NCBI RefSeq assembly: GCF_048403405.1
Contig: NZ_CP183129.1
DNA length: 64,000 nucleotides
Source of the DNA: Escherichia coli
GTDB taxonomy: Bacteria > Pseudomonadota > Gammaproteobacteria > Enterobacterales > Enterobacteriaceae
Direction: 5' to 3' (one strand)
Under the pieces are notes generated by a model. It ran no database searches and was not told where the DNA came from. It was given only the letters and a program-made list of their open reading frames with translations. Each line of letters opens with the position of its first letter. Within the stretch, counting starts at the first letter, position 1. The position numbers were made by a program, and so were the translations under genes. Shown here piece after piece: positions 2,666 to 4,123 of the stretch.

Positions 2666-4123
2666 CTATTTTTTAGCATTCGCATCCAGCGGGGCGGCAT
2701 AACAGCTGTAAGAAAAACATTCGCTGGAATGATTGGCGATATCTTTAAAGTTGCTTTCAGCAACCCCCTCGAACATGAGTACCGTTCTGGACAACTCTCC
2801 GTTTTCATTTATATATGGAAAATCAAATTGTGTACTGAATCGCCATACATCTGTCTTTTCTGGCTCGCTGTTCACAGAGATACGTCGATGGAAGACTCCT
2901 CCTGAAAACGTGCGCCAGAACAATTGTTGATCAAAATCTTGTAATATCGCACACTTGGATGCTATTTGACGTAGTAAACCTGCATACCGTGGACTGCCAT
3001 TACGAGCAACATTATACAAACCCTGACTAAAAGCATCAAACAAACAATAGATATGATCACTAGTGAAAAAAGGTCTTAATTTTTTTTGTTCTTCATCGCT
3101 GTAATCCAGGAGCATCTCATTGATTTCTTCCGGTGAGAATTTTAAGACAAAATTATCCTCAGGATTTGTTTCTTTCTTGTTTTTTTCACTATTCTTCTCC
3201 TCAATGGTCTTCGCATTTTGTTTCGCAATTTTTTTCGCATTTTCTTCCTCAGTTTTTTTCGCAATTTTTTCCGCAATTTTTTCCCGAGTTTTTGGTTTTA
3301 GACTAACACCATCGATGTCAACCGGTGTTGTTTTCAGATCTCTCTGCGCGTCTTTCAAATTTGTCTTATAGAGATCGGGCACTTTATCGGCAGATAAGTA
3401 TCCGGATGAAGAAATCTGGTGTGTACGCATGGGGGGCTGTTCACAAAGCATCGAGGCTATATCGTCTTTAAACTCTTTTACATTAAAGTTATCGGCATTA
3501 ACCTTCCCTGTTATAAACCCCGCATCGGCAATTTTCTTCTCTAATTGTTTTGTACGTTTAGAATAATAAGCGTTGTTATCATAAAACTTTTCAAGAAGGG
3601 CCCACTCCTCAAGTTGCCTTATGTGATTTTTCAACTGTTGATGATCTATTTTATATTCATGTGTACTAGAATCATTTTGGTTGCAGGGGTTACAGATTTT
3701 TAAGCATAATTTTCCATCATAATTATTATCTATGGTATCAGTGAAAATATAGGACACTTCAATACTCTGCCCGTTCTTATCAGTCATCTCATATGACCAT
3801 TGCCCCGTTCGTTTCGCATTCTTAATGAGTTCGATGGACTCTGCAGGACAACCATGAAGAATGGGCAGAATTTTATCAGGATGCTTAATGAGTAAAATTA
3901 TTATATTTACAATGTTTGAAAAGAAATCTTTGCTATTTTTTATTTCATCGATTTTTTCCGCTGAAATGTTTACTAAGTTTTCATTTCCGGAAATGAAAAG
4001 CAATTTGCCATGGGGGCTTTTTTTAAATTGTTCTTCTGTTTTAGAAAAGACATCCTCTTTAAAAGGTGGCAACTCACTACCAGTAATAAACGGTTTCAAT
4101 AAATTCGAATTTGAAATTGTCAT
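2666..4123 (-). CDS. Orphan 485-aa protein of unknown function on an AT-rich insert, with a lysine/glutamate-rich repeat linker; no signal peptide or recognisable catalytic motif
   Basis: Single long ORF filling the gap between the acpH and malZ stop codons. By eye it is markedly more AT-rich than the flanking genes. GGAG lies 7 nt upstream of the ATG at 4121-4123 (minus strand). Contains KIAEKIAKKTEEENAKKIAKQNAKTIEEKNSEKNKK. I cannot assign a family from memory. Confidence 0.8.
   Translation of the reverse strand: MTISNSNLLKPFITGSELPPFKEDVFSKTEEQFKKSPHGKLLFISGNENLVNISAEKIDEIKNSKDFFSNIVNIIILLIKHPDKILPILHGCPAESIELIKNAKRTGQWSYEMTDKNGQSIEVSYIFTDTIDNNYDGKLCLKICNPCNQNDSSTHEYKIDHQQLKNHIRQLEEWALLEKFYDNNAYYSKRTKQLEKKIADAGFITGKVNADNFNVKEFKDDIASMLCEQPPMRTHQISSSGYLSADKVPDLYKTNLKDAQRDLKTTPVDIDGVSLKPKTREKIAEKIAKKTEEENAKKIAKQNAKTIEEKNSEKNKKETNPEDNFVLKFSPEEINEMLLDYSDEEQKKLRPFFTSDHIYCLFDAFSQGLYNVARNGSPRYAGLLRQIASKCAILQDFDQQLFWRTFSGGVFHRRISVNSEPEKTDVWRFSTQFDFPYINENGELSRTVLMFEGVAESNFKDIANHSSECFSYSCYAAPLDANAKK

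What the first reader, a model, noticed from the sequence alone, without database searches (positions are those of the whole stretch)
3170..3300. Tandem imperfect repeats and multiple T6-T7 homopolymer tracts inside the orphan gene
The plus strand reads ...tttcgcaatttttttcgcattttcttcctcagtttttttcgcaattttttccgcaattttttcccgag..., a reiterated ~13-15-nt unit (ttt(t)cgcaatttttt) that encodes the KIAEKIAKK...AKKIAKQNAK segment. Runs of 6-7 T (about 3180-3186, 3229-3235, 3253-3259, 3265-3270, 3277-3282) lie within the coding frame. Such tracts are slippage-prone and could produce length or frame variants (phase-variable expression or a variable-length linker). Alternatively this is simply a low-complexity charged spacer between two domains.
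Basis: seen in the sequence. Interest (0 to 1): 0.45.

Follow-up and report, generated by a model that had tools for sequence, protein, structure and literature searches.

The report
In-frame 12-base repeat, variable-length protein spacer
A 12-base repeat inside an Escherichia-only gene of unknown function encodes a lysine/glutamate-rich spacer whose length differs between E. coli lineages in clean four-amino-acid steps; it is an ordinary in-frame coding minisatellite, not an on/off switch.

Summary
Window 3152-3295 (minus-strand coding) is an imperfect tandem array. Its period is 12 nt (four codons), not 13-15 nt.

The array lies in a 485-aa ORFan (2666-4123, minus strand; ECs_0454 family). 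This gene sits between acpH and malZ in about 21% of complete E. coli genomes and has no relatives among 1.84 billion representative proteins.

Across E. coli alleles, every in-gene indel I found falls in this array and is a multiple of 12 nt. The spacer is 33-69 aa long, in eight length classes. Alleles identical over the other 1305 nt compared (N- and C-terminal coding parts) still differ by one or three units, and the deletions match 13-14-nt exact direct repeats. So the 'variable-length linker' reading is supported.

The 'phase variation' reading is not supported:
- The runs are no more frequent than AAA/GAA codon usage predicts.
- They are only 6-8 nt long.
- Frameshifts are rare: A7 to A8 is fixed in one O145:H28 lineage (26 genomes), and A8 to A7 occurs in 3 of 1070 genomes.
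- The gene is intact and of constant length within clones such as O157:H7.

What the protein does remains unknown; the AlphaFold2 models were unusable.

Verdict: a new member of a known kind, of modest interest.

The parts
2666..4123 (-). The ORFan coding sequence (485 aa; ECs_0454 family, annotated 'hypothetical protein') that contains the repeat.
   Evidence: The ORF is listed. A GGAG Shine-Dalgarno sequence lies at 4131-4134. GC is 0.32-0.40 against 0.50-0.58 in the flanks. The gene is present at this locus in 1127-1129 of 5426 complete E. coli genomes. The only relatives among 1.84e9 representative proteins are its own cluster and fragments of it. Among 174 nucleotide changes in the compared alleles there are 0 stop codons, against 7.7 expected (P=0.0004).
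3152..3295 (-). Spacer-coding segment (codons 277-324): an imperfect array of 12-nt units close to ATTGCGGAAAAA, encoding [E/K][K/E][I/T/N][A/E/S] repeats.
   Evidence: TRF and repeat-finder results; codon register; lag-12 identity of 0.64 against 0.41 in shuffles.
3192..3284 (-). The part of the array where all in-gene length differences between the co-linear alleles fall (12, 24, 36 or 60 nt).
   Evidence: Alignment of 15 alleles plus the window; further alleles L018-L021; 28 allele pairs differ by one block indel only, all multiples of 4 aa.
3260..3284 (-). Two perfect copies of one unit: a 13-nt exact direct repeat, GGAAAAAATTGCG, at a distance of 12 nt. One copy is missing in the alleles of L003, L006 and L008.
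3221..3270 (-). A 14-nt exact direct repeat, AAAAAATTGCGAAA, at a distance of 36 nt. It brackets the 36-nt deletion in strain EC2202095 (L019), whose allele is otherwise identical to the window over the other 1305 nt compared.
3180..3186 (-). A7 tract (T7 on the plus strand) in codons 313-315 (EKN). It is the site of the +1 frameshift (A8) fixed in the O145:H28 lineage.
   Evidence: The A8 version is exact in 26 genomes. O145 strain RM12275-C1 has A7 and is otherwise identical over 3.1 kb to an A8 strain.
3229..3235 (-). A7 tract inside a repeat unit (the Lys-Lys-Ile codons AAA AAA ATT). No frameshift variant was seen here.
   Evidence: All full-length coding sequences in the sampled rows except the O145 allele have lengths that are multiples of 3.
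3253..3259 (-). A7 tract inside a repeat unit (the Lys-Lys-Thr codons AAA AAA ACT). No frameshift variant was seen here.
3265..3270 (-). A6 tract inside a repeat unit (GAA AAA ATT).
3277..3282 (-). A6 tract inside a repeat unit (GAA AAA ATT).
3080..3087 (-). A8 tract (codons EQKKL), the longest homopolymer in the gene.
   Evidence: The A7 variant is found in 3 of 1070 genomes, each from a different genome record. The A9 variant is found in 0 of 1070.
3296..4123 (-). N-terminal part of the protein (aa 1-276). Its length is constant in all co-linear alleles.
2666..3151 (-). C-terminal part of the protein (aa 325-485) with the stop codon. Its length is constant in all co-linear alleles.

Best explanation
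The feature is an in-frame coding minisatellite. About ten to twelve imperfect 12-nt units on the minus strand (consensus close to ATTGCGGAAAAA) encode a four-residue repeat, [E/K][K/E][I/T/N][A/E/S]. Together they form a Lys/Glu-rich, low-complexity spacer, probably helical or flexible, between the N-terminal part (about 276 aa) and the C-terminal part (about 160 aa) of an Escherichia-restricted ORFan.

Shown here:
- Units are gained and lost as whole 12-nt blocks, so the reading frame is always kept.
- Spacer length ranges from 33 to 69 aa among E. coli lineages.
- Such changes occur on backgrounds that are otherwise identical.

Inferred:
- The events arise by slipped-strand mispairing, or by unequal exchange, between the 11-14-nt exact direct repeats that the units create.
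- The protein tolerates a wide range of spacer lengths.

The T (A) homopolymer runs are a by-product of AAA (Lys) and GAA (Glu) codons. They are the weak points at which the gene is occasionally inactivated by a frameshift. They do not work as a programmed switch.
For: Periodicity: TRF finds period 12, and lag-12 identity exceeds all 10,000 codon shuffles.

Location and size of indels: every in-gene indel among the co-linear alleles compared lies at 3192-3284 and is a multiple of 12 nt. Coding-sequence lengths are 1422, 1434, 1446, 1458, 1470 and 1518 nt. In 46 unique spacer alleles the lengths are 33, 37, 41, 45, 49, 53, 57 and 69 aa. Twenty-eight allele pairs differ by a single block indel and nothing else, always a multiple of 4 aa.

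Recent events: the window and L019 have 0 differences in the other 1305 nt compared, yet differ by 36 nt in the array. L007 and L008 have 0 differences and differ by 12 nt.

Mechanism: the deleted blocks match the 13-nt (distance 12) and 14-nt (distance 36) exact direct repeats in the window allele.

Homopolymers: the runs are at the level expected from codon usage (Lys AAA 40, AAG 12).

Frameshifts: A8 at 3180-3186 occurs in 26 genomes, all O145:H28-type. A7 at 3080-3087 occurs in 3 of 1070 genomes, and A9 in none. All sampled rows of the O157:H7-type allele have one length.

The gene is real: 0 stop codons against 7.7 expected (P=0.0004), and synonymous changes are in modest excess (53 against 41, P=0.02).

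The spacer: the model predicts a helix at 277-308. A mosaic allele carries a shorter spacer without repeats.
Against: - The function of the protein is unknown, so the 'spacer between two domains' picture rests on conservation, secondary-structure prediction and the location of the variation. It does not rest on a confident structure (pLDDT 38.9 and 47.7).
- The slippage mechanism is inferred from deletion end-points, not observed.
- One O145 strain (RM12275-C1) has A7 where 26 relatives have A8. That could be a true reversion, so some two-way tract instability cannot be excluded.
- Only two of the six tracts in or near the array were surveyed by targeted queries.
Confidence: 0.85

Rival explanations
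1. Contingency locus: slippage in the T6-T8 (A6-A8) tracts switches translation of the gene on and off at high frequency.
For: All frameshift alleles found lie in homopolymer tracts: A7 to A8 at 3180-3186 and A8 to A7 at 3080-3087. One O145 strain has the in-frame A7 on a background that is otherwise identical over 3.1 kb to an A8 strain, which could be a reversion.
Against: - The tracts are no more frequent than the amino-acid sequence and codon usage predict (P=0.18), and they are at most 8 nt long.
- OFF alleles make up about 29 of roughly 1100 genomes. Twenty-six of them form one lineage, so they are inherited rather than switching.
- A9 is absent.
- At least one of the three A7 records also has a frameshifted malZ, which suggests assembly error.
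- From general knowledge, simple-sequence phase variation usually needs longer tracts and is not a known feature of E. coli.
Confidence: 0.04
2. The ORF is not a functional gene. It is AT-rich acquired DNA drifting neutrally, and the repeat variation has no consequence for any protein.
For: - Pairwise dN/dS is high and noisy, 0.3-2.8.
- There is no family, fold or homologue.
- The gene is absent from 79% of genomes.
- It is knocked out by IS1, by frameshift or by deletion in some strains.
Against: - There are 0 stop-creating changes among 174, against 7.7 expected (P=0.0004), and a modest excess of synonymous changes.
- Every indel in intact alleles keeps the frame.
- A canonical GGAG lies 7 nt before the ATG.
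- The ORF is intact in about 95% of the roughly 1100 carrier genomes despite 4-10% divergence.
Confidence: 0.07
3. The length differences are assembly artefacts: repeat collapse or expansion, and homopolymer errors.
For: Some records with single-base tract changes also have frameshifts in neighbouring genes. OkiPb01695 has a frameshifted malZ, and GCA_003742765.3 has many split genes.
Against: - The array is only 114-210 nt, well within single reads.
- The same length recurs in all genomes of a lineage from many laboratories, for example 1446 nt in every sampled row of the O157:H7-type allele and A8 in 26 O145:H28-type genomes.
- All records are complete genomes.
Confidence: 0.01

Closest known systems
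In-frame coding minisatellites (VNTRs) in bacterial proteins, such as the 24-nt repeats of Staphylococcus aureus spa, the 18-nt Ser-Asp repeats of clfA/clfB, and the loci used for MLVA typing (comparison from general knowledge).
   Same: Head-to-tail units whose length is a multiple of three. Copy number differs between isolates while the reading frame and the flanking domains are kept. Change by slipped-strand mispairing. The repeats encode a low-complexity spacer or stalk.
   Different: The units here are short (12 nt), few (about 9-17) and imperfect. The host protein has no signal peptide, no known family and no known function. Variation is slow: length is constant within clones such as O157:H7. 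I found no paper describing this locus.
Simple-sequence contingency loci, meaning phase variation by homopolymer or short-repeat slippage as in Haemophilus, Neisseria and Campylobacter (comparison from general knowledge).
   Same: Repetitive, slippage-prone DNA inside a coding region. The rare frameshift alleles do map to the homopolymer tracts.
   Different: The repeat unit is a multiple of three. The tracts are at most 8 nt, A/T rather than G/C, and not enriched. OFF alleles are rare and inherited along lineages. See the membership test.
Charged helical spacers: ER/K single alpha-helix (SAH) motifs and the Lys/Glu/Ala-rich central domain II of E. coli TolA (comparison from general knowledge).
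   Same: A Lys/Glu-rich repetitive segment, predicted helical, lying between two better-conserved parts of a protein, with some tolerance of length change.
   Different: Only 53% of the residues are charged. Same-sign i,i+4 pairs (10) outnumber opposite-sign pairs (8). Hydrophobicity has a period of exactly 4.0 residues and shows no signal at 3.5-3.6. Helix confidence is low (pLDDT 55-62). There is no sequence relationship to TolA or to any other family.

Membership tests
In-frame coding tandem repeat (VNTR / minisatellite) | Head-to-tail repetition of a unit, beyond chance | tested here: met
   TRF gives period 12, 6.1 copies and score 90, with multiples up to score 127. Lag-12 identity is 0.64 against 0.41 in shuffles, reached by 0 of 10,000.
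In-frame coding tandem repeat (VNTR / minisatellite) | Unit length a multiple of three, lying inside an ORF | tested here: met
   The unit is 12 nt, or 4 codons, at codons 277-324 of the 485-aa ORF.
In-frame coding tandem repeat (VNTR / minisatellite) | Copy number polymorphic among isolates, with flanks conserved | tested here: met
   There are eight spacer length classes, 33-69 aa, all in steps of 4 aa. Some alleles with identical flanks differ by 1 or 3 units.
Simple-sequence contingency (phase-variable) locus | The repeat changes the reading frame or promoter spacing when it changes length | tested here: not met
   The 12-nt units always keep the frame. Only the A6-A8 runs could shift the frame.
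Simple-sequence contingency (phase-variable) locus | The tract is longer or more frequent than coding needs would give | tested here: not met
   There are 12 runs of at least 6 nt against 9.7 expected under a synonymous-codon shuffle (P=0.18). The longest run is 8 nt.
Simple-sequence contingency (phase-variable) locus | ON and OFF tract lengths both common and intermixed among closely related isolates | tested here: not met
   A8 at 3180-3186 occurs in 26 genomes of one lineage, with one A7 exception. A7 at 3080-3087 occurs in 3 of 1070 and A9 in 0 of 1070. All sampled rows of the O157:H7-type allele have the same length.
Simple-sequence contingency (phase-variable) locus | High measured switching rate within a clonal culture | not testable with these tools
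   This needs a fluctuation assay or deep sequencing of the population.
ER/K single alpha-helix (SAH) spacer | Very high E/K/R content with predominantly opposite charges at i,i+4 | tested here: not met
   The segment is 53% charged. There are 8 opposite-sign and 10 same-sign i,i+4 pairs.
ER/K single alpha-helix (SAH) spacer | A stable isolated helix | tested here: inconclusive
   AlphaFold2 predicts a helix at 277-308, but with pLDDT of only 55-62 in a model whose mean pLDDT is 38.9.
Coiled coil | Heptad (3.5) or hendecad (3.67) hydrophobic periodicity | tested here: not met
   The hydrophobic moment peaks at period 4.0 (0.95). It is 0.18 at period 3.5 and 0.28 at period 3.67.

The most novel reading that the evidence does not exclude
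Spacer length might be a selected, tunable property: a reach or 'ruler' setting in a fast-evolving, Escherichia-only protein engaged in some conflict (phage, competitor or host). Under this reading, recurrent gain and loss of units is the adaptive mechanism, and A-tract frameshifts give occasional reversible silencing, as in O145:H28 with its one in-frame strain. The high rate of amino-acid change together with a strictly preserved ORF, and repeated independent unit changes on identical backgrounds, are compatible with this reading but do not demonstrate it.
Probability: 0.1. Interest if true: 0.55.

Novelty: new member of a known kind. Interest (0 to 1): 0.3.

Why it matters
The repeat is a textbook-style example of how short imperfect direct repeats inside a gene produce in-frame length alleles. 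It could serve as a small extra typing marker between E. coli lineages that carry the gene.

Its main value is indirect. It marks, and helps delimit, a flexible middle segment in a species-restricted ORFan that is kept open by selection in about a fifth of E. coli, including O157:H7, yet has no detectable relatives, fold or annotation.

Showing that this is not a phase-variation switch removes a tempting but wrong reading of A/T runs in AT-rich, lysine-rich genes.

Tried and rejected
Routes to the function of the protein, none of which gave a usable result:
- Pfam, NCBIfam, PADLOC and PHROGs scans gave only sub-threshold hits, all driven by the low-complexity segment (Cas7e/CT1975 at E about 0.003-0.06).
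- Sequence and profile searches of the PDB gave only E of 0.08 or worse, to dynein roadblock chains.
- phmmer against 1.84e9 representative proteins found only the gene's own cluster and fragments of it.
- A second word-indexed search, using the divergent middle of the mosaic allele, found only frameshift or partial fragments from error-prone assemblies.
- AlphaFold2 on the full-length alignment gave pLDDT 38.9, and on the C-terminal part alone 47.7. Both are unusable, so no fold search was run.

Searches for mobile or non-coding explanations:
- tblastn against phages found nothing. Against plasmids it found two records, both 4.9-Mb chromosomes filed as plasmids.
- Rfam on both strands found nothing.
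- The promoter scan found no site in the 185 nt upstream of the gene.

Literature: searches for ECs0454 and neighbouring locus tags, and for malZ/acpH with tandem repeats, returned nothing relevant.

Readings rejected on general knowledge, without a test:
- Ribosome sliding on poly(A) and transcriptional slippage both need longer A runs than the 7-8 nt present here.
- The plus-strand ORFs at 3120-3371 and 3133-3306 are Phe/Ser-rich mirror images of the repeat.

Variable-cargo hotspot: rejected. The acpH-malZ site is binary, empty in 4295 genomes and holding this gene in about 1127.

Full report
**Setting**

The window is E. coli chromosome. The gene order is queA (901-1971, minus), acpH (2064-2645, plus), a 485-aa ORF (2666-4123, minus), then malZ (4309-6126, minus), proY and brnQ.

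In K-12 the stop codons of malZ and acpH are 4 bp apart. The 485-aa ORF therefore sits on an extra segment of about 1.66 kb (about 2646-4308). Its GC content is 0.32-0.40, against 0.50-0.58 in the flanks.

The finding at 3170-3300 lies in the middle of this ORF, which is read on the minus strand.

Yes, with one correction: the period is 12 nt, not 13-15 nt.
T7 is at 3180-3186, 3229-3235 and 3253-3259. T6 is at 3265-3270 and 3277-3282.
- TRF reports period 12, 6.1 copies and score 90 at 3210-3282, and multiples of 12 over 3179-3293.
- The repeat finder places seven copies at a spacing of 12.
- Written in codon register, the segment is a four-codon unit: EKIA EKIA KKTE EENA KKIA KQNA KTIE EKNS EKNK KETN.
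- Identity at lag 12 is 0.64. Codon shuffles of the same segment give 0.41 +/- 0.04, and none of 10,000 reached the observed value.

The homopolymer runs are not more than chance. I shuffled synonymous codons within the gene while keeping the protein sequence. There are 12 runs of at least 6 nt, against 9.7 expected (P=0.18). In the spacer there are 5, against 3.7 (P=0.25). Lys is encoded by AAA 40 times and AAG 12 times. The runs are what a Lys/Glu-rich segment written in AAA and GAA codons looks like.

**Comparison across isolates**

*Distribution.* The gene is present once, at this same locus and on the chromosome, in 1127-1129 of 5426 complete E. coli genomes. A query made of the two flanks finds 4295 genomes with the empty K-12-type junction and about 1127 with the flanks separated. 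The site is therefore binary, with no alternative cargo.

*Where the indels fall.* I fetched about 20 alleles spread over the identity range and aligned them.
- Every in-gene indel in the co-linear alleles lies at window 3192-3284 and is a multiple of 12 nt.
- Coding sequences are 1422, 1434, 1446, 1458, 1470 and 1518 nt long.
- Outside the array the alleles do not differ in length.

*Spacer lengths.* I pooled the 120 closest database proteins, the window protein and the proteins translated from the fetched loci.
- Between two conserved anchor sequences there are 46 distinct spacers.
- Their lengths are 33, 37, 41, 45, 49, 53, 57 and 69 aa.
- Twenty-eight pairs differ by one block indel and nothing else, always a multiple of 4 aa.

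*Events are recent relative to point mutation.*
- The window allele and strain EC2202095 (L019) have no difference in the other 1305 nt compared (the N- and C-terminal coding parts), yet differ by 36 nt in the array.
- L007 and L008 have no difference and differ by 12 nt.

*Mechanism.* The deleted blocks coincide with the longest exact direct repeats of the window allele. These are 13 nt at a distance of 12, and 14 nt at a distance of 36. This is the signature expected of slipped-strand mispairing or unequal exchange. The mechanism is inferred, not observed.

*Stability within clones.* All 27 sampled rows of the O157:H7-type allele have one length.

**Frameshifts**

All frameshift alleles found lie in homopolymer tracts, but they are rare and follow lineage.

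*Tract at 3180-3186.*
- A +1 change, A7 to A8, is shared by O145 strains.
- An exact-match query finds it in 26 genomes, all O145:H28-type and sequenced by several laboratories. It is a real pseudogene allele fixed in that lineage.
- One O145 strain, RM12275-C1, has the in-frame A7. It is otherwise identical over 3.1 kb to an A8 strain. It is either a revertant or a consensus error, and I cannot tell which.

*Tract at 3080-3087.*
- A7 in place of A8 occurs in 3 of 1070 genomes, each from a different genome record.
- At least one of the three also has a frameshifted malZ, which suggests assembly error.
- A9 occurs in none of 1070.

*Other inactivations.*
- IS1 insertions.
- A partial deletion in an O55:H7 strain.

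Altogether roughly 95% of carrier genomes have an intact gene. This pattern is ordinary mutational decay at weak points, not programmed switching.

**The gene**

No Pfam, NCBIfam, PADLOC or PHROGs family reaches significance. No PDB sequence does either. phmmer against 1.84 billion representative proteins returns only the gene's own cluster and fragments of it. There are no phage or true plasmid copies and no Rfam match. It is a genuine Escherichia/Shigella ORFan. In O157:H7 Sakai it is ECs_0454, and I found no literature on it.

It is nevertheless a real gene.
- Among 14 unique alleles, 174 changes outside the array include no stop codon, against 7.7 expected under random placement (P=0.0004).
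- Synonymous changes are in modest excess, 53 against 41 (P=0.02).
- A GGAG sequence lies 7 nt before the ATG.
- Amino-acid constraint is weak: pairwise dN/dS is 0.3-2.8.

**The spacer**

AlphaFold2 failed, with pLDDT 38.9 for the full length and 47.7 for the C-terminal part. I therefore ran no fold search, and the function stays unknown.

The models do predict a helix at residues 277-308 (pLDDT 55-62).

The spacer's sequence properties are:
- 53% charged residues, net charge +4;
- a hydrophobic period of exactly 4.0 residues, with no signal at 3.5-3.67;
- more same-sign than opposite-sign i,i+4 pairs.

It is therefore neither a coiled coil nor a classical ER/K single helix. The best description is a low-complexity charged segment, probably helical or flexible.

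A mosaic allele (strain JX21CE8, L013) has a divergent middle section (aa 276-395). Its spacer there is shorter and has no repeats. The flanking parts therefore work with very different spacers.

**Conclusion**

The feature is an in-frame 12-nt coding minisatellite that makes a variable-length spacer. The 'phase-variable expression' reading is not.

The kind is well known; this instance appears undescribed.

The most novel reading the evidence leaves open is that spacer length is itself selected in a fast-evolving, conflict-related protein. I give that about 10%.

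Noticed in passing
window 2666-4123 (minus strand): The host gene is a true ORFan. It has no relatives among 1.84e9 representative proteins, GC of about 35%, and is present in about 21% of complete E. coli genomes. Its site between the acpH and malZ stop codons is strictly binary, either occupied or empty. The ORF is kept open by selection but evolves fast (dN/dS roughly 0.3-2.8).
   Followed up: partly
L013 167-1552 (strain JX21CE8); corresponds to window about 2940-3295: This is a mosaic allele. Residues 276-395 are only about 50% identical to the window protein and lack the repeats, while both ends are about 93-95% identical. 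That suggests recombination with a much more divergent copy, which I did not find.
   Followed up: partly
L014 (WCHEC4533) 1105-1870; H41 (strain E21); H100 (O55:H7 USDA5905): The gene is interrupted by IS1 in two strains that are otherwise 100% identical to the window. In an O55:H7 strain it is largely deleted.
   Followed up: no
L023 against L024 (O145 strains RM12275-C1 and RM8995-C1); window tract 3180-3186: One O145 strain has the in-frame A7 where 26 related genomes have the frameshifting A8. The two 3.1-kb loci are otherwise identical. This is either a reversion or a sequencing error.
   Followed up: yes
window 4231-4274: A 10-bp-stem inverted repeat (AGCCCTGACA ... TGTCAGGGCT), with an inner GCAGC/GCTGC stem, lies just after the malZ stop codon. 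It is probably the malZ terminator. The A run in its loop varies between A5, A6 and A7 among alleles.
   Followed up: no
window 2346-2645 and 4309-4608 (ends of acpH and malZ): The best 'empty-site' genome is only 96.7% identical to these flanks, while genomes that carry the gene are mostly 98-100% identical. The presence/absence polymorphism therefore seems old and linked to diverged flanking haplotypes.
   Followed up: no
window 42001-43000: This is the only other kilobase of the window with GC as low as 0.36. It lies between tauA and a gene I judged PIG-L-like deacetylase from its ORF translation (not scanned against any family library). I did not examine it.
   Followed up: no
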